Source: a virus
Length of the DNA: 64,000 nucleotides
Strand: one strand, 5' to 3'
Virus record (IMG/VR): IMGVR_UViG_3300048580_000375
Span: 3,304-67,303 of that record
The position numbers were made by a program, and so were the translations under genes. Positions 1 to 7,070 of the stretch are shown in pieces (position 1 is the first letter of the stretch; each line of letters starts with the position of its first letter). The notes beneath the pieces are model-generated. The model made no database searches and had not been told where the DNA came from. It saw only the letters and a list, made by a program, of their open reading frames with translations.

Positions 1-176
1 ATATGACTTAATTTAACTGATTCACTTTTAGTTCTAACAACAAATAAACCATTTTTACAACCATAAGATAATCCATTATTACTAATATTAAAGTTTTTAG
101 CCACCTCAACCCAAGTATGATTTTCATCATAGTATTTTTGTATTTCAACCCAATTATATGTAATATATTTACTCAT
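1..176 (-). CDS. 5' part of a protein running off the window (MSKYITYNWVEIQKYYDENHTWVEVAKNFNIS...), probably an HTH-containing homing endonuclease
   Basis: Open frame from ATG at 176 to the window edge, translated by hand. It has an HTH-like N-terminus and lies directly downstream of tRNA-Lys, like the other endonuclease genes in this array. Confidence 0.5.
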   Translation of the reverse strand, partial: MSKYITYNWVEIQKYYDENHTWVEVAKNFNISNNGLSYGCKNGLFVVRTKSESVKLSH

Positions 177-191
177 ATCTTATTATTTTAG

Positions 192-263
192 TCCTCCCGC
201 CGAGAGTCGAACTCGGCCCCATAGATTAAAAGTCTATTGCCTACACCAGTTTGCTACAAGAGG
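192..263 (-). tRNA. tRNA-Lys(UUU)
   Basis: Acceptor CCTCTTG/CGGGAGG; anticodon arm ATAGA-CTTTTAA-TCTAT; T arm CCGAG-TTCGACT-CTCGG. Confidence 0.9.
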
Positions 264-299
264 TTATTTTTTATATCACCCCCATACCAAGAGAGTGTT

Positions 300-320
300 T
301 TAATTTGGTTTTCGTTTCAT
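300..320 (-). promoter_or_regulatory. Mini-ORF MKRKPN upstream of tRNA-Lys
   Basis: ATG AAA CGA AAA CCA AAT TAA, followed by the hairpin CACTCTC-TTGGTAT-GGGGGTG just before tRNA-Lys(UUU). Confidence 0.5.
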
Positions 321-344
321 CGTCTTAATCTTTTTTTATTCTTT

Positions 345-417
345 GATCCAAATGTCGGATTCGAACCAACTTCCCATCATTACAAGTGACGTGTTTTCCC
401 AATTAAACTAATCTGGA
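345..417 (-). tRNA. tRNA-Thr(UGU)
   Basis: Acceptor TCCAGAT/ATTTGGA; anticodon arm CGTCA-CTTGTAA-TGATG; T arm GTTGG-TTCGAAT-CCGAC. Confidence 0.9.
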
Positions 418-424
418 ATATAAC

Positions 425-459
425 AAAAAACCCTGAACTTTTTAAGGGTTCAGGGTTTT
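425..459 (-). terminator. Attenuator terminator 1
   Basis: AAAACCCTGAAC-CCTTAAAAA-GTTCAGGGTTTTTT ending about 8 nt before tRNA-Thr. Confidence 0.85.
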
Positions 460-485
460 AATATTTATTTTAATATTATTATGTT

Positions 486-590
486 TTACGTTTTAGACAA
501 AACACTTCCTGAACCAAGTGAGATATTATTTCTACCCCCTTTTGTTGTTGCTTTCGCAGTTACCACCATATTTCTGTTCGTGTTTTTCAT
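486..590 (-). CDS. Attenuator leader peptide 1, 34 aa (MKNTNRNMVVTAKATTKGGRNNISLGSGSVLSKT)
   Basis: Short ORF between a promoter and a terminator. It contains ACT GCG AAA GCA ACA ACA AAA and the segment GGTTCAGG (515-508), which is complementary to the 5' arm of the terminator. Confidence 0.75.
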   Translation of the reverse strand: MKNTNRNMVVTAKATTKGGRNNISLGSGSVLSKT

Positions 591-599
591 ATTTGTATT

Positions 600-665
600 A
601 TATAAATAGTATGTTTTTTTCTTTTGTTATACAAAGATATAACTTTTTTTTTAAAATGTCAAACT
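600..665 (-). promoter_or_regulatory. Tandem Bacteroidota sigma70-type promoter and phage TATTTAT motif
   Basis: TTTGAC...TATATCTTTG (-33/-7 consensus TTTG / TAnnTTTG), followed by ACTATTTATA just before the leader ATG. Confidence 0.7.
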
Positions 666-670
666 TTTTT

Positions 671-1000
671 TTAATTTTTTTTCATCCCTTTATGTTTTTT
701 AATCACTTCAATGATTACTTCTACAGGAACATATGGATAAACGGTATCTGTAGGATTATTATTTGATTGAGCATAATCTATAATTAGTTCTTCATATTCA
801 GAAGGAAACCCAATCTCCATTTCGGTAAAATTACTACCAAATTGTCTTGGGTTTGAATATGAAAATTCCCCACCCTGAACTGACATAGAAAATCCATCAT
901 TACATTCTATCCTAGGTCTTGGATTCAAACTAATAGTGGTAGTTTTTTCCAACCACTCTTGAAATTTTACACTTACACTAATTTTCGATAAACTCCTCAT
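671..1000 (-). CDS. Conserved-type phage hypothetical protein
   Basis: 109 aa ORF with a CNDGFSMSVQ...VYPYVP motif pattern. Confidence 0.75.
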   Translation of the reverse strand: MRSLSKISVSVKFQEWLEKTTTISLNPRPRIECNDGFSMSVQGGEFSYSNPRQFGSNFTEMEIGFPSEYEELIIDYAQSNNNPTDTVYPYVPVEVIIEVIKKHKGMKKN

Positions 1001-1328
1001 ATTTTTTTAATAATATTATTAAATCGTTTTCTAACCTATTTTTTAATTCAGTTATATCTTCATAATACCAACCATCTAATTCGTAAATTAAATCGTCATT
1101 TATTGACATGGACATTCTATTTACCCCTGAATTAAATACATATAATTCATCACTATCACTATTACATAACATTATTGTCCAACCACCTAATTGTTGTCGG
1201 TTAGTTAAACTAATATTCCAAGTTAAACCAATATAAGTAAAAAGACGATAAGTTATATTTGAATCATCAACATTTGACACCCAATCATTAGTATATCTTA
1301 ACTTTTTGATTTGTTTTACACTTCTCAT
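978..1328 (-). CDS. Hypothetical protein
   Basis: 116 aa ORF, overlapping and coupled to the next gene. Confidence 0.7.
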   Translation of the reverse strand: MRSVKQIKKLRYTNDWVSNVDDSNITYRLFTYIGLTWNISLTNRQQLGGWTIMLCNSDSDELYVFNSGVNRMSMSINDDLIYELDGWYYEDITELKNRLENDLIILLKKYEEFIEN

Positions 1329-1339
1329 ACTTTGATTTT

Positions 1340-1726
1340 TTAGTAATTTTCATAAAATTTCTCCATTCTTTCCATTACCACATCTAAACTCCAACCACTT
1401 GAACTCTTTTGGTCGTTCCAATGAAAGTAACCCATTTGTATTTTCTCAACACTCCTGGAAATTGACTTGTCGTGTACAAATTCTGGCATACCACCATTAC
1501 CTAAATCCTTGTTGTAGTTACAACGATACTCAACAACTATGTCTTTACCATTGAATTTTTTCGTGTAACGTATTTTAGATTTACCTTTCATTCGTGTCCA
1601 ACCGTGATTAGACATATAAACATCCATTTGTTCGATAACACTATTTTTTGTTACCTCTAAAAAAGCTTGTCTTTCTTCTTCCTGTTTTTTAAGGAAATCG
1701 TAATATTGTTTAACTGTGTTATACAT
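1340..1726 (-). CDS. Hypothetical protein (early-type)
   Basis: 128 aa ORF downstream of a host-type promoter. Confidence 0.75.
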   Translation of the reverse strand: MYNTVKQYYDFLKKQEEERQAFLEVTKNSVIEQMDVYMSNHGWTRMKGKSKIRYTKKFNGKDIVVEYRCNYNKDLGNGGMPEFVHDKSISRSVEKIQMGYFHWNDQKSSSGWSLDVVMERMEKFYENY

Positions 1727-1744
1727 ATCTGTTTTGTTAATTAC

Positions 1745-1780
1745 AATACAAATATACCCCTTTTTTTAATATTTACAAAT
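1745..1780 (-). promoter_or_regulatory. Bacteroidota sigma70-type promoter
   Basis: TTTGTAAAT...GGTATATTTGTAT. Confidence 0.6.
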
Positions 1781-1796
1781 TTTTTTAATTTTTTTT

Positions 1797-1869
1797 GTGG
1801 AATATCTGAAATTCGAATCCAAGCCTTACCCTGTTTAGGGTCTGCACATCCTTATGTGCTTTTATCCCA
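1797..1869 (-). pseudogene. tRNA-like element with aberrant anticodon arm
   Basis: Acceptor TGGGATA/TATTCCA; D arm GCAC..GTGC; TTCGAAT loop; anticodon hairpin ACCCT-AAAC-AGGGT is non-canonical. Confidence 0.6.
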
Positions 1870-1873
1870 TTCG

Positions 1874-1903
1874 TACTACCAACCGGATTTGAACCGACAA
1901 CCT
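1874..1903 (-). tRNA. 3' half of a split tRNA
   Basis: AGGTT-GTCGG-TTCAAAT-CCGGT-TGGTAGT-A; the acceptor strand is the exact complement of ACTACCA at 2651-2657. Confidence 0.75.
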
Positions 1904-2472
1904 TATAATAAATTAAATAAATGTTTATTATGGTACTCCCTATGGCAATTAGAACAAAGTACCTCACACTTATTTAATTCAGGTATTAATTTATCAAACG
2001 ATTTAAGATTACCGCCAGATATCCCAAATTCTTTTTCATTACTATCTTTATGATGTAAATCTAACGCACCTACACATCTATTATAACCACATTTACTACA
2101 CTTACCACCTAAATACTTTAAACATTTAATTTTAATATTCAAACGCCATTGTCTATGCTTTTCATATTGTTTATCACGTAATTCATCTTTTGTTTTAAAT
2201 TTCTTTGGCGTCTTACCGGTATATTTTTTTACCGTACCATATGAAATACCTAATTTTTTAGCGATTTCTTTTTTTGTAATCGATCCGTCATTTAATTCTT
2301 CAATTACTTTAATTAATTCATTAGTTATTTTACTACCCCTATTATTTATAGGGTTGTTTAACCCTTCTTTTTTAAGATGATATGATATTATACCTTTACC
2401 TATATTCAGTTTTTTAGATATATCATCATATGACATATTTTCCCTTCTTAATTTTAAAATTTGATCCCTCAT
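1903..2472 (-). CDS. HNH homing endonuclease with N-terminal HTH
   Basis: GGKCSKCGY...ALDLHH...KCEVLCSNCHREYH motif; HTH-like segments. Confidence 0.9.
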   Translation of the reverse strand: MRDQILKLRRENMSYDDISKKLNIGKGIISYHLKKEGLNNPINNRGSKITNELIKVIEELNDGSITKKEIAKKLGISYGTVKKYTGKTPKKFKTKDELRDKQYEKHRQWRLNIKIKCLKYLGGKCSKCGYNRCVGALDLHHKDSNEKEFGISGGNLKSFDKLIPELNKCEVLCSNCHREYHNKHLFNLL

Positions 2473-2522
2473 ATTTATTTATTTAATAATAAATACATTA
2501 AAAAACTAAAAAGGTTCAATTG

Positions 2523-2594
2523 TTGTGGGTACGAGAATCGAACTCGTATGACAAACGTATAAGATTCGCAGCCTAACCATTAACTGAACCCACA
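2523..2594 (-). tRNA. tRNA-Ile(UAU)
   Basis: Acceptor TGTGGGT/ACCCACA; anticodon arm CGAAT-CTTATAC-GTTTG; T arm ACGAG-TTCGATT-CTCGT. Confidence 0.85.
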
Positions 2595-2607
2595 ATAAAA
2601 ATACTTC

Positions 2608-2657
2608 AAATAATATTCAACCAATTACCCTGCTCTCACCAATTGAGCTATGGTAGT
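2608..2657 (-). tRNA. 5' half of a split tRNA
   Basis: ACTACCA-TA-GCTC-AATTGGTGA-GAGC-A followed by an irregular hairpin; no adjacent T arm. Confidence 0.75.
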
Positions 2658-2667
2658 ATATTATTTG

Positions 2668-2740
2668 TGGGGACGGGTGGTTACGATCCACCTCCTTCAG
2701 TTTTTCAGACTGACGCTTCTACCAAGTTAGCTTCATCCCC
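2668..2740 (-). tRNA. tRNA-Phe(GAA)
   Basis: Acceptor GGGGATG/CGTCCCC; anticodon arm TCAGT-CTGAAAA-ACTGA; atypical T loop ATCGTAA. Confidence 0.9.
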
Positions 2741-2749
2741 TTTTATTTG

Positions 2750-2822
2750 TACTCCCACCCAGATTTGAACTGGGATCCCCACCTTATCAGGGTGGTATCC
2801 TCACCGATTAGACGATGGGAGC
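2750..2822 (-). tRNA. tRNA-Ile(GAU)
   Basis: Acceptor GCTCCCA/TGGGAGT; anticodon arm CCACC-CTGATAA-GGTGG; T arm CCCAG-TTCAAAT-CTGGG. Confidence 0.85.
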
Positions 2823-2832
2823 GTATATTTTG

Positions 2833-2905
2833 TATTCCGTACGGGATTTGAACCCGTAATCTTTTCCTTGAAAGGGAAACGACTTAACCATTTGTCCAAC
2901 GGAAC
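2833..2905 (-). tRNA. tRNA-Glu(UUC)
   Basis: Acceptor GTTCCGT/ACGGAAT; anticodon arm TTTCC-CTTTCAA-GGAAA. Confidence 0.9.
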
Positions 2906-2916
2906 ATTTATTTTAG

Positions 2917-2993
2917 CGGTACCAGTGGAATTCGAATCCACCTGTTTTTCCCGAGTGACAGTCGGGTAGCCACACCTAGCAGCCCCTGATACC
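2917..2993 (-). tRNA. tRNA-Asp(GUC)
   Basis: Acceptor GGTATCA/TGGTACC with G discriminator; anticodon arm CCCGA-CTGTCAC-TCGGG. Confidence 0.9.
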
Positions 2994-3011
2994 ATATTTT
3001 TAAAGAACTAT

Positions 3012-3046
3012 AAAACAAAAAACCCAAACTTATTAGGTTTGGGTTT
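3012..3046 (-). terminator. Attenuator terminator 2
   Basis: AAACCCAAAC-CTAATAA-GTTTGGGTTTTTTGTTTT about 20 nt before tRNA-Asp. Confidence 0.85.
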
Positions 3047-3073
3047 CTCTTAATTTAATCTAACTACACTTTA

Positions 3074-3151
3074 TTAGACACAAAGATATCCCAAACTGAG
3101 GTTTCTATCCTCAATCACGTTAAATTCAAATATGTTAATAATTGTTGTCAT
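3074..3151 (-). CDS. Attenuator leader peptide 2, 25 aa (MTTIINIFEFNVIEDRNLSLGYLCV)
   Basis: ATT ATT AAC ATA TTT GAA TTT AAC GTG ATT GAG GAT, then GTTTGGG (3096-3090) complementary to the terminator 5' arm CCCAAAC. Confidence 0.8.
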   Translation of the reverse strand: MTTIINIFEFNVIEDRNLSLGYLCV

Positions 3152-3171
3152 AATCTTTTTTTTTAATTGTT

Positions 3172-3870
3172 TTACTTTCTTCCTTTAACCCAACCATCTA
3201 ATTGATAAGTTTCAAGGCCTTCTTTTTTAATCTTTTTGTTAGTACCATCTTTGGTTATCCAACACGTACCGAATTGGCTATTTGATTCACCAACACCATT
3301 ACCTTTAGATGATTCAGACATTAGTTTCTTAGTTTCTTCAGAATGTTTTTTATTCTTAAAGGTACCTTCAGAAAAACCAGCATTTGAGAACCCTATTTTA
3401 GTTTTTAAAATCCAATCATCTTTTAATGTTTTATCATTTTCTAATGATATTCTAAAATTTTTACTTATTTCACTTTGAAAATTATCACCAAATTTATTCT
3501 TTAAAAATTCGTTAGTTTTTAATCTACCATTTTTAACACCTTCAGTAAAAAATTTAATTTTATGTTCTTCTGAACTAAAACCCCCATAACCACCTACTTT
3601 TAGATTTATACAATCAATTTTAGCAATTTCGTTTAAATTAACAATTTCACCCTCTCTATTTTTTAGTTCTTCTCTTGTTTTACAAAATTCAAGTATTTCC
3701 CTAATAAAATTTTCTTTACCGTGTTTGTTAATAGAATACCTTAACCTAGTACCACTACCCAAATAACCATCATCTAAATCATCAGTACTATGCATTCCTA
3801 TATAATATTTACCACTTAATATATTTGTGGTTTTATATATGAAATGATACTTTTTTTCTTTTCTCGCCAT
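3172..3870 (-). CDS. GIY-YIG (Seg-like) homing endonuclease with NUMOD3
   Basis: FIYKTTN..GKYYIGMH...YLGSG motif; KHSEETKKLMSES NUMOD3-type motif. Confidence 0.9.
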   Translation of the reverse strand: MARKEKKYHFIYKTTNILSGKYYIGMHSTDDLDDGYLGSGTRLRYSINKHGKENFIREILEFCKTREELKNREGEIVNLNEIAKIDCINLKVGGYGGFSSEEHKIKFFTEGVKNGRLKTNEFLKNKFGDNFQSEISKNFRISLENDKTLKDDWILKTKIGFSNAGFSEGTFKNKKHSEETKKLMSESSKGNGVGESNSQFGTCWITKDGTNKKIKKEGLETYQLDGWVKGRK

Positions 3871-3926
3871 ATCTATCTTTTATAATAAATATGCAGAAAA
3901 ATGTAAAAGTACAAAAAACATTGACT

Positions 3927-4002
3927 TGGTTGCGGAGGATGGATTCGAACCACCGACCTCAAGGTTATGAGCCTTGCGAGCTACCACTGCTACTACTCCA
4001 CA
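3927..4002 (-). tRNA. tRNA-Met(CAU), initiator-like, with encoded CCA
   Basis: Acceptor TGTGGAG/CTCCGCA-ACCA; AGCAGTGGTAGCT D arm; anticodon arm CAAGG-CTCATAA-CCTTG. Confidence 0.9.
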
Positions 4003-4017
4003 ATATATTTTCTTACT

Positions 4018-4082
4018 AATAAATAGTATGTTTTTTTAAATTGTGATACAAATATACTATTTTTTTTCTATTTGTCAAACTT
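4018..4082 (-). promoter_or_regulatory. Tandem host-type promoter and TATTTAT motif upstream of tRNA-Met
   Basis: TTTGACAAAT...TATATTTG...CATACTATTTAT; near copy of the cassette at 600-680. Confidence 0.7.
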
Positions 4083-4093
4083 TTTTTTAATTT

Positions 4094-4537
4094 TTATCCC
4101 CATTGTTGGACTGAAAAAAATATTTTATCGTTCATTTCATCAACCACCTCAGCCATTATCCAACCGTGATTTTCAGGTAATTTACTATCATCACCAATAA
4201 CTTTAAAATATGTCAATCCACCTTCTTCAATTATTCCACCATAAAACAAATCCATTAATTCATCATAAGCTGTTTTTTTAAATCCATAACAACTATCACC
4301 GTCAAGATCTTTGGTTTTTTTGAAGTGTTCAGACCATATTAATATTGGTTGATTCGGATCATTATCATCTATTGAAAAATCAAATTCATCCAAATATTTC
4401 TTTAGTTCTTCAGCTCTTTCATCGATATATCTTGGAATAAATAATTTACCTTTTTTTGGATTTTCATCTTCTTGGATTACCTTATTAATAATGTTGGTTA
4501 ATTCTTGTTCTGTTATTTTAATCTTCTTCATATCCAT
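4094..4537 (-). CDS. Hypothetical protein with KKIKITE N-terminal motif
   Basis: ORF track; TATTTAT motif upstream. Confidence 0.75.
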   Translation of the reverse strand: MDMKKIKITEQELTNIINKVIQEDENPKKGKLFIPRYIDERAEELKKYLDEFDFSIDDNDPNQPILIWSEHFKKTKDLDGDSCYGFKKTAYDELMDLFYGGIIEEGGLTYFKVIGDDSKLPENHGWIMAEVVDEMNDKIFFSVQQWG

Positions 4538-4603
4538 AAATAGTTTATTTTGTTTTATTCTGATACAAAGGTAATATAATTTTTTTATACTTCCAAATGT
4601 TTT

Positions 4604-5551
4604 TTAAATTATTTCAATTTCACTTAAATGTCTGTAATTCAATAACGTATTATAAAAATCTTCTTTATTTTCAAATAACTTTCCTAAATCTCTATCATCT
4701 GGATAATTTAAAACAAATATACGATTTCTTAATTTCCCAGCATTTAATTTCTGATACATCCCATATATTTGTTGGGTGGCGTCAGGATCTAAAGCAATAA
4801 CAATATCAGATTTAGCGTTATCATATATTGCTTTCCATTTAAACTCTGATAATGACTTACCCAATAATAAGAAGTGATTTGGTATTGGTAATCCATCAAA
4901 TACACCTTCAGTTATATATAATGGTTTTTCCCAATCGATTCTATTCTCATTAAATATTAAATCATCTTTATCGGTGTCAGGGTTTAGATATTTTTGTTTA
5001 GCACCAATATATGACCTAGTTGAGAAATAAATAATATTACCTTTCTTATCGTATAATGGAACAACTATTCTTTGCTTATATTTTCCTTCTAAACAAAACC
5101 CAATGTTAAATTCTTTTAATAAATCATCGGTATAACCTCTTGATATAATGTAGTTATAAGGTTGAAGGTGAATATAATTTCTTTTATTTATAATTGAAAA
5201 TGGGATGAATTCTTTTGGGAATTCAGTAATATTTTTATCTTTTTTCGTATATTTTCTCTTATTTATTTGATAATCGTATTCAGGAGCAATTACTTTAAAT
5301 GTATTATAATGCTGTTTATTTCCAAATTTTTTAATAATCCCATCAATTGTTCCTGGAGTTCTTTCACAAGCCCAACAATGGGATAAACCTTCTTCAAGAT
5401 TTATTTCAAGATTTCCTTTCCCATCATATTCAACGTTTTTATCTGCCGAACATAATGGACAATCAACAGTTATTTGTGAGTTTCCGTGATATGTTTTTTT
5501 TATGTTTCCAAAAATTGAAACAACTAAGTCTGTTATAAGAGAATAATCCAT
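4604..5551 (-). CDS. DNA primase (zinc finger plus TOPRIM)
   Basis: CPLC...HCWAC zinc finger; YITEGVFD and ALDPDA TOPRIM motifs; KYLNP. Confidence 0.9.
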   Translation of the reverse strand: MDYSLITDLVVSIFGNIKKTYHGNSQITVDCPLCSADKNVEYDGKGNLEINLEEGLSHCWACERTPGTIDGIIKKFGNKQHYNTFKVIAPEYDYQINKRKYTKKDKNITEFPKEFIPFSIINKRNYIHLQPYNYIISRGYTDDLLKEFNIGFCLEGKYKQRIVVPLYDKKGNIIYFSTRSYIGAKQKYLNPDTDKDDLIFNENRIDWEKPLYITEGVFDGLPIPNHFLLLGKSLSEFKWKAIYDNAKSDIVIALDPDATQQIYGMYQKLNAGKLRNRIFVLNYPDDRDLGKLFENKEDFYNTLLNYRHLSEIEII

Positions 5552-5577
5552 TATTATAAGTATAGGAAAAAGGCATA

Positions 5578-5607
5578 AAAAAATCCCCTTTATTAGGGGA
5601 TTTTTTT
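5578..5607. terminator. Intrinsic terminator
   Basis: AAAAAATCCCCT-TTATT-AGGGGATTTTTTT. Confidence 0.75.
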
Positions 5608-5621
5608 AAAAATGCTTGTTG

Positions 5622-6251
5622 TTACATTAATTCATCTAACATTCCATATCTTCTAGCTGCATCATATAATTTCGGATTTTTAATTTTTAAATCACGTCTA
5701 CTTGTATAATCACCATTTTCAAATTCTTGCCTTATCAATTCAGGTGTCCAAGATGGTTGGAATCTATATGGTATTAATTCATCTAACATACCACGTTTTC
5801 TAGCCGCAAAATATAATTTCGGATTTTTTTTCTCTAAATCACGTCTACTTGTATAATCACCATTTATAAATTCTTGCCTTATCAATTCAGGTGTCCAAGA
5901 TCTTTCTATTCCACTAGGTAATGATTTATTATCATCGAAATAATCCATAGCCCAATCATCCATATAACCAGTCACTTTACCAATTCGCCTATCTAATTGA
6001 TCGTAAACTTGTTTGGTTAAAGTATCGATAAATATTTTATCACTACTTCTATCAGTGTACATAAAAACATCCCCCCCTCTTTCAATTATTTTCATAATAA
6101 GTTCAGCAGAAACTTTAGTTCCCATAGCATATCTTTTAGCTGAAGCAAAATCTGTTATTTTTCTTTTTACAATACCGCCCGGTAAATCTTCATTTTCGTT
6201 AATAACTCGTCTAACGATTCTAACGATGTCTGATTCTGTTAATCTAATCAT
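5622..6251 (-). CDS. Hypothetical protein with RLTESD N-terminus and two 49-aa C-terminal repeats
   Basis: ORF track; SWTPELIRQEF..GMLDEL occurs twice. Confidence 0.8.
   Translation of the reverse strand: MIRLTESDIVRIVRRVINENEDLPGGIVKRKITDFASAKRYAMGTKVSAELIMKIIERGGDVFMYTDRSSDKIFIDTLTKQVYDQLDRRIGKVTGYMDDWAMDYFDDNKSLPSGIERSWTPELIRQEFINGDYTSRRDLEKKNPKLYFAARKRGMLDELIPYRFQPSWTPELIRQEFENGDYTSRRDLKIKNPKLYDAARRYGMLDELM
5627..5901. repeat. 147-bp tandem direct repeat (about 2 copies)
   Basis: ttaattcatctaacat...tcaggtgtccaagat recurs at 5627 and 5774. Confidence 0.85.
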
Positions 6252-6298
6252 TTTTTTTTGTTTTTTTATTTTAATATAAATAGTTTATTTTTTTAATT

Positions 6299-6853
6299 TT
6301 ATTTATTCCACATACCCATAAGATATTCATCATATTCATCTTTAAGTTCTGATATAATATCATCAGTATCATCATATTCATCTGAAATATCCCATTCAAT
6401 CTCATCAAAAATTCTACTCATCCAATCATATACATCACTATAACCACGTTGCGATATTTCATTAGCGTATTTATTAATAAGTTTTTCAAATCTTCCATTG
6501 TTTTCTTTATCATCTAAATTTGATTCTGTTATTTTTTTTAAATAAAGTTCCCTAATAAAAGGAGCAACATCATCAAAAGTAACACCTTCACATTCTTCAT
6601 CTACATAAAGAGGTATATCCATAACATCTTTTAAATATTTAATAAATCTTTCATATGCTGCAGTATCATTCTTTTCGGGTATAACATCGTCATTCCAATA
6701 TAGTAAATCCCCACCATTTTTCCTATTAGTAAATGCAAAGTCAATATATGTTTTAATACATTTCATTGGATTACCCATATCTTCATTTTCTTTGATAACT
6801 CTTTTAACTATTCTCGTAATATCGCTTTCAGTTAATCTTACAATTTTTTTCAT
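6299..6853 (-). CDS. Acidic hypothetical protein with RLTESD N-terminus
   Basis: ORF track; TATTTAT motif upstream. Confidence 0.8.
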   Translation of the reverse strand: MKKIVRLTESDITRIVKRVIKENEDMGNPMKCIKTYIDFAFTNRKNGGDLLYWNDDVIPEKNDTAAYERFIKYLKDVMDIPLYVDEECEGVTFDDVAPFIRELYLKKITESNLDDKENNGRFEKLINKYANEISQRGYSDVYDWMSRIFDEIEWDISDEYDDTDDIISELKDEYDEYLMGMWNK

Positions 6854-6881
6854 TCTTTTATTTTATTTTAATATAAATAGT

Positions 6882-7070
6882 TTATTTTTTAATTTTAAAA
6901 GTTTCAGGATTTCTTTTTTGTTTATTTGCTGTAGCATAATAAACTGATTTACCTTTTTTCTTTCCATATTGTTTTTGGAATGATGACATTGCCGGTTTAT
7001 CATATTCTTTAACCATATCTTCAATAAGATTGATTAATTCTGTTTCTGTAAGTTGTATTTTCTTCCCCAT
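6882..7070 (-). CDS. Small basic hypothetical protein
   Basis: QYGKKKGKSVYYATANK motif; LTETEL N-terminus. Confidence 0.75.
   Translation of the reverse strand: MGKKIQLTETELINLIEDMVKEYDKPAMSSFQKQYGKKKGKSVYYATANKQKRNPETFKIKK

What the first reader, a model, noticed from the sequence alone, without database searches (positions are those of the whole stretch)
192..665. Second attenuator with the same design in front of tRNA-Thr(UGU) and tRNA-Lys(UUU)
Seen: a promoter is followed by a 34-aa leader (590-486) with GTG GTA ACT GCG AAA GCA ACA ACA AAA GGG GGT AGA (V-V-T-A-K-A-T-T-K-G-G-R). Next come GGTTCAGG (515-508), complementary to the terminator 5' arm CCTGAACC (454-447), then the terminator and tRNA-Thr(UGU), whose cognate codon is the tandem ACA ACA, then tRNA-Lys(UUU), cognate to AAA. 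The antiterminator/terminator pair has a different sequence from that of attenuator 2 but the same logic, which is covariation-like support. Both leaders share R-N..S-L-G near the antiterminator and a GTCTAA near the end. Inference: this is a reusable attenuator module whose codon window is tuned to each tRNA operon.
Basis: partly seen in the sequence, partly recalled or inferred. Interest (0 to 1): 0.9.

Follow-up and report, generated by a model that had tools for sequence, protein, structure and literature searches.

The report
Codon-matched attenuator gating phage tRNA genes
A lake phage places a 34-codon test gene, written in the codons that its next ten tRNA genes read, and a switchable transcription stop in front of those genes, so it probably makes them only when ribosomes read those codons slowly.

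Summary
The parts in order are a promoter (663-632), a 34-codon ORF (590-486), GGTTCAGG (515-508) complementary to the terminator 5' arm (454-447), a terminator (458-428 plus U-run), tRNA-Thr(UGU) and tRNA-Lys(UUU).

The 3.3 kb to the left carries Lys(CUU), Asn, Arg(UCU), Val, Ala, Met and two Gly tRNAs. Leader residues 1-22 use only the eight amino acids of these tRNAs.

Relatives without homing-endonuclease insertions keep the ORF, the terminator and a compact ten-tRNA operon with no promoter in between.

I found the same design in 13 distinct modules from 7 phage records with different tRNA sets:
- 12 of 13 leaders match their own set best.
- 0 of 100,000 shuffled pairings reach the observed score.
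- 4 of 4 blind predictions held.

A homologous leader family shows compensatory changes in the antiterminator helix.

My best reading, at about 0.75, is ribosome-mediated leader-peptide attenuation applied to tRNA genes. The mechanism is inferred; there are no expression data.

Eight literature searches found no description of it. This scan had already noted the design on leader B of this genome and on other phage DNA (phiCbK-like, crAss-like and lake phages). I re-checked phiCbK myself.

The parts
632..663 (-). Promoter P1. It has TTTGACA, then 17-20 nt, then TATCTTTG. It fits both the sigma-70 scan and the Bacteroidota -33/-7 pattern TTG..TAnnTTTG.
   Evidence: TTGACA-17-TATCTT, 10 of 12. 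(the pattern occurs only 9 times on this strand in 64 kb); near-identical copy in front of tRNA-Met at 4086-4051. The Bacteroidota consensus itself is recalled, not taken from a call.
597..618 (-). Second conserved motif, AAAAACATACTATTTAT(ATAAT), 7-9 nt before the ATG. It may be a second, phage-type promoter or a 5'-UTR element.
   Evidence: exact copy at 4019-4035; 2-mismatch copies at 6276-6292 and 6873-6889 upstream of ordinary genes. Its function was not tested.
486..590 (-). Leader ORF, 34 codons plus TAA.
   Evidence: It is conserved as a 36-codon ORF in L003 and L004.
525..587 (-). Codon window, codons 2-22. Every codon is read by a tRNA of the operon downstream: Lys AAA, Asn AAC/AAT, Thr ACG/ACT/ACA, Arg AGA, Met ATG, Val GTG/GTA, Ala GCG/GCA, Gly GGG/GGT.
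508..515 (-). Antiterminator 5' strand (segment 2), GGTTCAGG, inside the ORF 21-29 nt before the end of the stop codon.
   Evidence: In the MFE of the transcript truncated before the terminator 3' arm, this segment pairs with 454-447.
425..458 (-). Intrinsic terminator: hairpin at 458-428 and U-run to 425. Its 5' arm (458-447) is shared with the antiterminator.
   Evidence: (dG -14.4). Rfam Thr_leader hits only this hairpin, at 23 bits against a 55-bit threshold.
345..417 (-). tRNA-Thr(UGU), first gated gene. It starts 7 nt after the U-run.
191..263 (-). tRNA-Lys(UUU), second gated gene. The operon continues left of the window with Lys(CUU), Asn, Arg(UCU), Val, Ala, Met, Gly(GCC) and Gly(UCC), interrupted in this record by endonuclease genes.
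   Evidence: The compact form is seen in L003 and L004.

Best explanation
This is a ribosome-mediated (leader-peptide) transcription attenuator that gates a phage tRNA operon.

Proposed sequence of events:
1. Transcription starts at P1/P2.
2. The 34-codon leader is translated.
3. Its first 22 codons are a sampler of the codons read by the tRNAs encoded downstream: Thr, Lys, Asn, Arg-AGA, Val, Ala, Met and Gly.
4. If any of these is decoded slowly, the ribosome lags in the window. GGUUCAGG (515-508) stays free and pairs with the terminator's 5' arm as that arm emerges. The terminator cannot form and RNA polymerase runs on into the tRNA genes.
5. If the window is read quickly, ribosomes run over or sit next to segment 2 while the terminator is made, and transcription stops 7 nt before tRNA-Thr.

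The result would be negative feedback: the phage makes this tRNA set when the cell's supply of it is short.

Shown: the anatomy, the codon/tRNA match, its conservation and its co-variation with tRNA content, the absence of a bypass promoter in this lineage, and two alternative pairings with compensatory changes in a homologous family.

Inferred: translation of the ORF, the direction of the switch, and the physiological signal.
For: ANATOMY.
- The order is promoter, ORF, segment 2, terminator, tRNA-Thr.

PREDICTION MET.
- Downstream of Thr and Lys(UUU) lie Lys(CUU), Asn, Arg(UCU), Val, Ala, Met, Gly(GCC) and Gly(UCC).
- Residues 1-22 of the leader use only these eight amino acids.
- 9 of 10 tRNA species have a cognate codon in the leader.

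RARITY.
- 22 of 22 windows: 0 of 18,531 in long ORFs.

CONSERVATION.
- L003 and L004 keep the ORF (36 codons; the length difference is 6 nt).
- 24 of 24 and 23 of 24 leading residues are in the set, despite many substitutions.
- GGG GGT becomes GGT GGG, which keeps one codon for each Gly tRNA.
- A natural variant, Ile23 to Thr, also stays in the set.

NO BYPASS.
- In L003 no -33/-7 promoter-like site lies between the terminator (6598-6628) and the last tRNA (8056).

SISTER MODULES.
- Leaders B and C match operons Asp-Glu-Ile-Phe-Ile and Pro-Gln-Tyr-Trp-Ser-His-Ser-Leu-Leu-Cys-Arg.
- Together the three operons partition the 20 amino acids.

SWAP.
- Distant relative G001 (primase 34% identical) has a homologous module with the same MKN.N..M start and the same CCTGAAC terminator.
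- Its window reads NVSIWNQQFSNCSYPRISH and it stands before Ser Gln Met Tyr Phe Asn His Arg(ACG) Ser Pro Ile Cys Trp.

BLIND TEST.
- At 4 of 4 newly found terminator-to-tRNA junctions the upstream ORF matched: Phe/Asn/His, Lys x3, Cys/Val/Leu and Phe/Glu/Ala.

STATISTICS.
- 13 modules were scored. The own set ranks first for 12 of 13 leaders under strict wobble and 11 of 13 under loose wobble.
- The summed z is 41.8. Shuffled pairings give mean 2.4, maximum 29.5, and 0 of 100,000 reach the observed value.
- 90 of 97 tRNA species are sampled by their own leader.

SWITCH.
- The best leader/5'-arm duplex beats shuffles at p<=0.061 in 9 of 13 modules. Fisher combined p is 5e-8.
- The truncated-transcript MFE pairs the 5' arm with the ORF's 3' part in 12 of 13 modules. 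The full-length MFE holds the terminator in 13 of 13.
- In 21 distinct sequences of the G001 leader family, antiterminator pairs 13:96 and 14:95 switch AU/GC to GC/AU in 5 sequences with no broken cell. In the same 5 sequences the terminator pair 96:102 is lost.

NEGATIVE CONTROL.
- The T5 tRNA region has 0 terminator-to-tRNA junctions.

PEPTIDE NOT CONSTRAINED AS A PROTEIN.
- Variable sites by codon position are 8/12/11.
Against: - No expression evidence. The one RNA-library contig over 392-652 (depth 2.9) starts upstream of the -7 box and may be DNA.
- For this module alone the antiterminator match is not significant (61 of 1000 shuffles). Two of 13 modules (G006-b, G008-b) show no significant match.
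- The stop codon lies after segment 2, not before it as I recall for trpL. A ribosome footprint placed at the stop removes the antiterminator from the MFE in only 2 of 13 modules and weakens it in 2 more. The OFF state therefore needs timing, steric blocking or trailing ribosomes, none of which I could test.
- There is no Shine-Dalgarno sequence, and only about 9 nt separate the second motif from the ATG. That is acceptable for Bacteroidota by recalled knowledge but was not tested.
- In G001-like phages a good promoter-like site follows the terminator, so there the attenuator can only add to a basal level.
- The compensatory changes probably reflect one or two events in related sequences.
- The 13 modules were partly found by eye, and their tRNA sets were delimited by me.
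- Leader B's whole-length z is only 1.0.
Confidence: 0.75

Rival explanations
1. The leader is translated and acts in cis, but the logic differs from the classical one. For example, efficient translation might promote read-through (feed-forward) because segment 2 is freed behind a ribosome that has reached the stop. Or the ORF might mainly load ribosomes to shield the untranslated tRNA transcript from Rho, with the codon match serving as a quality gate.
For: - The stop codon lies 21-29 nt after segment 2.
- A ribosome modelled at the stop leaves the antiterminator in the MFE in most modules; it is fully removed in 2 of 13.
- No upstream segment competes with segment 2 in module A, so an untranslated leader would read through.
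Against: - A ribosome stalled in the window also leaves segment 2 free. The only state that hides it is a ribosome passing over it, that is, fast translation.
- The stop lies 28 nt before the terminator stem, so a terminating ribosome cannot melt the terminator.
- Negative feedback explains why the window samples nearly every tRNA of the operon (90 of 97). Feed-forward does not.
Confidence: 0.12
2. This is an ordinary small phage gene with its own terminator. The tRNAs are made by leaky read-through, and the codon match is a by-product of base composition or chance.
For: - The phage is AT-rich (about 0.25-0.31 GC), so Lys, Asn, Ile and Phe are common anyway.
- Gene callers list the G001-type leader as a hypothetical protein.
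- Leader B's enrichment is modest: 93 of 52,432 windows reach 9 of 12.
Against: - 0 of 100,000 shuffled leader/operon pairings reach the observed match.
- Rare residues (Cys, Trp, His, Tyr, Pro) appear exactly where their tRNAs follow.
- 4 of 4 blind predictions held.
- The same holds in GC-rich phiCbK.
- Leader peptides share no physico-chemical character, and second codon positions vary as much as third.
- The terminator 5' arm co-varies with the ORF segment rather than with its own 3' arm.
Confidence: 0.07
3. This is a translation-independent RNA switch. The codon-like string would bind tRNA anticodons directly, as a multi-specifier analogue of a T-box, and so stabilise the antiterminator.
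For: - The string is in the 5' leader next to an antiterminator/terminator pair.
- There is no Shine-Dalgarno sequence.
Against: - The string is always an ATG-to-stop frame. Within-ORF length differences are multiples of 3 in the two families examined (6 nt; gaps of 3 and 9 columns), while spacer indels are not.
- There is no T-box or other Rfam match at E<=1 in 1-6000 except tRNAs, weak terminator-only hits and antisense tRNA look-alikes.
- Twenty or more adjacent specifiers have no precedent and no conserved scaffold is visible.
Confidence: 0.04

Closest known systems
Multivalent leader-peptide attenuators of enterobacterial amino-acid operons (thrL sensing Thr and Ile; ilvL of ilvGMEDA sensing Ile, Val and Leu). 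Recalled knowledge.
   Same: Both have a short translated leader with codons for several amino acids, an intrinsic terminator, an alternative antiterminator that uses the terminator's 5' arm, and a decision set by how fast the ribosome reads the leader.
   Different: - The regulated genes here are tRNA genes, not biosynthetic enzymes. The sensed molecule and the product are the same kind of molecule.
- The window samples 8 amino acids (up to 12-13 in relatives) rather than 1-3.
- The stop codon lies after segment 2.
- It is phage-encoded, and present in several copies per genome, each tuned to its operon.
- The Rfam Thr_leader model scores 23 bits against a 55-bit threshold.
pheST (phenylalanyl-tRNA synthetase) attenuator of E. 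coli. Recalled knowledge.
   Same: Leader-peptide attenuation applied to a gene of the translation apparatus, read out through the supply of charged tRNA.
   Different: It controls a synthetase, uses a single amino acid, and is cellular. No sequence relation was sought or found.
T-box riboswitches
   Same: A terminator/antiterminator decision in a 5' leader that reports on tRNA status.
   Different: T-boxes bind one uncharged tRNA directly, without translation, and control synthetase or amino-acid genes. There is no T-box match here, and the element is an ORF.
Anabaena trn operon, a 26-gene tRNA array that is silent until translation is impaired
   Same: An accessory tRNA array switched on by translational stress.
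   Different: Control there is by a protein repressor, TrcR (abstract of PMC10272220). PMC8421152 contains none of the words attenuat, leader peptide, terminator or small ORF.

Membership tests
Ribosome-mediated leader-peptide transcription attenuators | Short ORF with a start codon in the 5' leader, between the promoter and the regulated genes | tested here: met
   ORF 590-486 lies after promoter 663-632. It is kept open in L003 and L004, and the length difference is 6 nt.
Ribosome-mediated leader-peptide transcription attenuators | Leader enriched in codons whose decoding reports on the regulated function | tested here: met
   22 of 22 leading codons are in the operon's tRNA set. 9 of 10 tRNA species are sampled. 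The own set ranks first of 13.
Ribosome-mediated leader-peptide transcription attenuators | Intrinsic terminator between leader and regulated genes, with no promoter after it | tested here: met
   Hairpin at 458-428 with dG -14.4 plus T6, 7 nt before tRNA-Thr. No promoter-like site lies inside the operon in L003. This is not met in G001-like relatives.
Ribosome-mediated leader-peptide transcription attenuators | Mutually exclusive antiterminator that uses the terminator 5' arm and a segment placed so that the ribosome controls it | tested here: inconclusive
   - An 8-bp match at 515-508 with 454-447 is present and forms in the truncated-transcript MFE.
- Alone it has p=0.061.
- Across 13 modules Fisher p is 5e-8.
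- Compensatory changes occur in the homologous G001 family.
- Ribosome control of it is only partly reproduced by footprint masks.
Ribosome-mediated leader-peptide transcription attenuators | Read-through rises when the cognate charged tRNA is scarce and depends on leader translation | not testable with these tools
   This needs reporters, Term-seq or Ribo-seq. The only RNA-library contig is ambiguous.
Ribosome-mediated leader-peptide transcription attenuators | Regulated genes are amino-acid biosynthesis, transport or synthetase genes (all described members, by recall) | tested here: not met
   The gated genes are tRNAs. This is the respect in which it is a new variant.
Rfam RF00506 Thr_leader | Score at or above the 55-bit gathering threshold | tested here: not met
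   23 bits at 422-476. The 118-position model is spanned by 55 nt, that is, the terminator hairpin only.
T-box riboswitch | Match to the T-box covariance model (specifier loop, T-box sequence) | tested here: not met
   No T-box hit at E<=1 in window 1-6000.

The most novel reading that the evidence does not exclude
Phage tRNA arrays may be organised into regulons, each guarded by a multi-codon probe ORF that works as a tRNA-pool sensor. Shortage, or cleavage by host anticodon nucleases, of any one of up to 13 tRNA species would stall the probe's ribosome and switch on exactly the replacement set. The device would be ancient or repeatedly evolved, since it occurs from Bacteroidota jumbo phages to Caulobacter phage phiCbK. 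It would amount to a general counter-measure to host tRNA depletion and a natural, programmable codon sensor.
Probability: 0.35. Interest if true: 0.95.

Novelty: new variant of a known kind. Interest (0 to 1): 0.86.

Why it matters
- Why phages carry tRNA genes, and how they control them, is a fifty-year-old question. A leader that test-translates the very codons its operon serves would show that at least these phages meter tRNA supply by direct feedback. It would also point to tRNA shortage during infection as the selective force.
- It extends leader-peptide attenuation from metabolic genes to the decoding apparatus itself.
- It shows that a leader can report on a dozen tRNAs at once.
- It offers ready-made, swappable codon-specific sensors for synthetic biology.
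- The design is also present in cultured phiCbK, which has a tractable host, so the idea can be tested directly.

Tried and rejected
- Rfam. The only non-tRNA hits near the element were Thr_leader at 23 and 22.5 bits (threshold 55). They cover just the two terminators, so I rejected membership.
- DNA search of cultured phages. 0 of 267 records cover 80% of the query; there is no close relative.
- Nearest cultured primase relative, Flavobacterium phage immuto (30% identity). It has 3-4 tRNAs, and I saw no leader/terminator module before them.
- T5. My recollection that its small ORFs might be attenuators found no support: 0 terminator-to-tRNA junctions by my scan.
- RNA evidence. Two metatranscriptome runs hold about 5% of the sampled words. 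One contig spans 392-652 but may be DNA. Parts without cover say nothing.
- A simple model in which a ribosome at the stop codon hides segment 2 is not supported by footprint masks.
- I looked for a link between Ser/Val at leader codon 11 and presence of a Val tRNA in the G001 family. It is inconsistent: L145 has Ser although Val(UAC) follows. Those loci are also cut at 2.5 kb.
- Alignment A4 misplaced segment 2 of the three G000-type rows. I dropped those 3 of 24 rows and counted pairs on the remaining 21 (A5).
- In one search near-identical copies of modules (L003-L007, L015, L016, L019, L021, L023, L025, L030, L032, L033, L035, L044) were left out as duplicates. phiCbK modules were not added.
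- The tRNA sets were delimited by hand:
  - Each set runs to the next module or to the end of the cluster.
  - The G001-1 set includes Cys and Trp 5-6 kb downstream.
  - The G001-2 set includes a Thr(UGU) seen only by Infernal.
  - The odd 86-nt Thr-like gene of G000 was left out.
- Supplementary files of papers were not opened. Those of the phiCbK genome paper might list the small ORFs.
Full report
WHAT IS THERE.

The window is bases 3304-67303 of a 67,303-base IMG/VR virus record estimated about 20% complete. It is AT-rich (0.25-0.31 GC). All features discussed lie on the minus strand.

Reading 5' to 3':
- A promoter-like site TTGACA-17-TATCTT at 662-634 (10 of 12). It also fits the pattern TTG-N18-23-TAnnTTTG, which occurs only 9 times on this strand in 64 kb. 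That this is the Bacteroidota -33/-7 consensus is my recollection, not a tool result.
- A second motif at 618-602 that recurs before tRNA-Met and before two ordinary genes.
- The ORF 590-486, MKNTNRNMVVTAKATTKGGRNNISLGSGSVLSKT.
- GGTTCAGG at 515-508.
- The stop codon at 488-486.
- A hairpin at 458-428 (dG -14.4) followed by six U.
- Seven nucleotides later, tRNA-Thr(UGU) at 417-345, then tRNA-Lys(UUU) at 263-191.

The whole leader folds better than all 200 shuffles (z -3.2).

THE EXPLICIT PREDICTION.

The record continues 3,303 bases to the left of the window. ARAGORN finds there, on the same strand and in this order: Lys(CUU), Asn(GUU), Arg(UCU), Val(UAC), Ala(UGC), Met(CAU), Gly(GCC), an odd 86-nt Thr-like gene, and Gly(UCC). 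They are separated by an endonuclease-like ORF, one further ORF and a GIY-YIG-like gene.

So Val, Ala, Gly and Arg are all present, as predicted. More than that, the first 22 residues of the leader use only M, K, N, T, R, V, A and G. These are exactly the amino acids of the tRNAs that follow, and the codons fit the anticodons (AGA for UCU; GGG and GGT for UCC and GCC).

Such a run is found in 0 of 18,531 windows of the record's long ORFs and in 4 of 37,774 windows of all open six-frame segments. I did not map those four.

RELATIVES OF THE SAME LINEAGE.

The gene just upstream (671-1000) recovers three IMG/VR contigs at 64-77% identity.
- L003 and L004 carry the module and a compact operon without endonuclease insertions: Thr, Lys, Lys, Asn, Arg, Val, Ala, Met, Gly, Gly in 1.4 kb. 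No promoter-like site lies between the terminator and the last tRNA.
- Their leaders are 36 codons long and differ from the window's at many positions. Even so, 24 of 24 and 23 of 24 leading residues stay in the set.
- L002 has lost the leader, the terminator and eight tRNAs together.
- In freshwater metagenome contigs a variant turns Ile23 into Thr, again inside the set.

THREE OPERONS, THREE LEADERS.

- In these relatives leader B (MTTIINIFEFNVIED...) follows tRNA-Met directly and precedes Asp, Glu, Ile, Phe, Ile. In the window a GIY-YIG gene is inserted between them.
- A third leader lies beyond the end of the window's record. It reads MKTLINISLSSLYLLQSLCQSCVSVLPLHQYWL... and precedes Pro, Gln, Tyr, Trp, Ser, His, Ser, Leu, Leu, Cys, Arg(ACG).
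- Under strict wobble, 28 of the 44 codons after the start of leader C are read by those tRNAs. In the peptide as printed, 24 of the 26 codons 8-33 are in the set.
- The one Cys-to-Arg change in L004 is CGC, which Arg(ACG) reads.
- The three operons partition all twenty amino acids.
- Each terminator has a different sequence, and each has its own upstream complement: GGTTCAGG/CCTGAACC, GTTTGGG/CCCAAAC and GGATTTAG/CTAAATCC.

THE DESIGN TRAVELS WITH THE tRNA SET.

A 309-kb relative, G001 (primase 34% identical), has a module homologous to the window's, with the same MKN.N..M start and the same CCTGAAC terminator. Its window reads NVSIWNQQFSNCSYPRISH and it precedes Ser, Gln, Met, Tyr, Phe, Asn, His, Arg(ACG), Ser, Pro, Ile, Cys, Trp. 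All 13 species are sampled.

A 17-mer that precedes the first tRNA in several modules led to further phage contigs carrying the same design and other sets:
- L017/G006
- L020/G009
- L031/G007, where KKHSSKSFKFWSHS precedes Lys, Arg, Trp, Ser, His, Phe, Ser, Trp, Lys, Ser
- L037/G008

I then fetched whole tRNA clusters of four records and listed terminators before reading any ORF. The four new terminator-to-tRNA junctions each had an upstream ORF enriched in the predicted residues:
- Phe/Asn/His
- Lys x3
- Cys/Val/Leu
- Phe/Glu/Ala

STATISTICS OVER 13 DISTINCT MODULES.
- The own tRNA set gives the highest z-score of 13 sets for 12 leaders under strict wobble and for 11 under loose wobble.
- The summed z is 41.8. 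Shuffled pairings give mean 2.4, sd 5.4 and maximum 29.5, and 0 of 100,000 reach the observed value.
- 90 of 97 tRNA species have at least one cognate codon in their own leader.

Caveats: some modules are homologous, nine were first seen by eye, and I set the operon limits.

The T5 tRNA region shows no terminator-to-tRNA junction. GC-rich phiCbK shows two clear modules at terminators annotated by its depositors.

THE SWITCH.

- The best duplex between leader and terminator 5' arm lies inside the last 4-43 nt of the ORF in 12 of 13 modules (G006-c is the exception). It beats 1000 dinucleotide shuffles at p<=0.061 in 9 of 13. Fisher combined p is 5e-8.
- For the window's module alone p is 0.061. 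Two modules show nothing.
- Folding the transcript up to the terminator loop pairs the 5' arm with that ORF segment in 12 of 13 modules. Folding the full leader gives the terminator in 13 of 13.
- The leader family of G001 gave 30 loci and 21 distinct sequences. In 5 of them two adjacent antiterminator pairs change on both sides (AU to GC and GC to AU) with no broken cell. 0 of 500 shuffles reach the covariation score, and slid controls are lower.
- In the same 5 sequences the top terminator pair is lost and the next becomes U-G. The 5' arm therefore tracked the ORF segment, not its own 3' arm. This is probably one or two events, so it is supportive rather than decisive.

IS THE ORF READ AS CODONS?

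- The string always runs from ATG to a stop 20-45 nt before the terminator.
- Within-ORF length differences are multiples of three (6 nt between G000 and L003; gaps of 3 and 9 columns in A5). Spacer gaps are not.
- Variable sites in the G001 family are spread 8/12/11 over the three codon positions. That is not what a conserved protein shows.
- Of the ten minority residues at codons 10-28, seven (S, S, N, S, Q, N, I) belong to the following tRNAs.
- The peptides of different modules share no common character beyond a Lys/Thr/Asn-rich start.

MECHANISM AND ITS WEAK POINT.

I commit to negative feedback by ribosome-mediated attenuation. Slow decoding of any window codon holds the ribosome upstream of 515-508. 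The antiterminator forms, and the tRNA operon is transcribed.

Two things are unlike the textbook cases:
- No upstream segment competes with segment 2 in module A, so an untranslated leader should read through.
- The stop codon lies after segment 2. A footprint at the stop removes the antiterminator from the MFE in only 2 of 13 modules and weakens it in 2 more.

The OFF state must therefore rest on one of three things: ribosomes passing over segment 2 while the 5' arm emerges, a terminating ribosome sitting between the two strands, or a trailing ribosome. Segment 2 lies 15-43 nt before the stop, where a second ribosome would sit. That is inference.

In G001-like phages a promoter-like site follows the terminator, so there the device can only add to a basal level. 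In the window's lineage it is the only route.

HOST AND CONTEXT.

- The promoter type points to a Bacteroidota host.
- The nearest cultured primase is from Flavobacterium phage immuto.
- The 17-mer also lies 128-161 nt before 16S rRNA in 11 of 80 bacterial hits, from Leeuwenhoekiella, Flavobacteriaceae and Winogradskyella.
- Lake and freshwater metagenomes hold the stretch.

KNOWN OR NEW.

Eight full-text searches returned no paper describing leader-peptide attenuation of tRNA genes.
- For PMC3082878, PMC4810235 and PMC3556154 I read only the passages around my search terms. The phiCbK genome paper has no occurrence of 'attenuat'.
- The nearest idea in print is the Anabaena trn array, induced by translational stress and controlled by the repressor TrcR (abstract). 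PMC8421152 has no occurrence of attenuat, leader peptide, terminator or small ORF.
- Subscription journals, including the 1980s T5 literature, are outside the library.

Notes of this scan report the same design for leader B of this genome and for other phages. They are not independent evidence. I re-tested leader B and phiCbK here.

VERDICT.

This is a new variant of a known mechanism. It is widespread, the inferred steps are clearly marked, and a cultured system exists in which to test it.

Noticed in passing
L003 11884-11900; L002 10260-10276; L014 16247-16231 (minus); not in window module A: The 17-mer AGTTATTTGACATATTG sits about 12-30 nt before the first tRNA after several leader terminators. 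It also lies 128-161 nt upstream of 16S rRNA in 11 of 80 bacterial hits (Leeuwenhoekiella, Flavobacteriaceae, Winogradskyella). It looks like an rrn-leader element; by recollection only, it could be a boxA-like antitermination or processing signal borrowed by the phages.
   Followed up: partly
window 6276-6292 and 6873-6889 (minus): The motif AAAAATAAACTATTTAT(AT), close to the second motif of the tRNA promoters (618-602, 4035-4019), precedes two ordinary genes by about 17-23 nt. It may be a phage-specific promoter class.
   Followed up: no
window 3172-3870, 1903-2472; L001 about 2940-3478 and 1170-1815 (minus): GIY-YIG, HNH and other endonuclease-like genes are inserted inside the tRNA operons of this record and are absent from L003 and L004. 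A metagenome contig joins 3178 to 3929, that is, it lacks the GIY-YIG gene.
   Followed up: partly
L001 1081-1160 and 1927-2000 (minus strand spacers before tRNA-Gly(GCC) and tRNA-Met): A repeated inverted pair, TTTCACTTAGAATAAAA ... TTATTAGTGAAA, brackets the spacer in front of two tRNAs. It also appears before tRNA-Gly in L002. Its function is unknown.
   Followed up: no
L001 909-994 (minus): An 86-nt tRNA called Thr(UGU), 52 bits in Rfam, that ARAGORN did not call in L003 or L004. It would be a second Thr(UGU), or a tRNA of another identity.
   Followed up: no
L001 595-908; L002 6537-6791: A stretch of about 250-310 nt between the two Gly tRNAs is also present in L002. It has no Rfam match.
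   Followed up: partly
window 320-300 (minus): The mini-ORF MKRKPN between tRNA-Thr and tRNA-Lys is kept as MKRKQ plus a hairpin in L003 and L004. It is the subject of another note of this scan.
   Followed up: no
window 3096-3074 (minus); L003 4080-4113: The 3' end of leader B (GGGATATCTTTGTGTC) resembles the -7 box of the P1 promoters. The promoter pattern scan picks it up, with an over-long spacer.
   Followed up: no
L003 6382-6420; L002 9979-10020 and equivalents: A hairpin-forming insert of about 38 nt lies between P1 and the second motif in most modules of the relatives. It is absent from the window's module A.
   Followed up: no
L041 488-559; L047 10905-11057: tRNAs with anticodon CUA (called Pyl by ARAGORN, that is, amber suppressor-like) occur in two of the phage contigs found through the 17-mer.
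   Followed up: no
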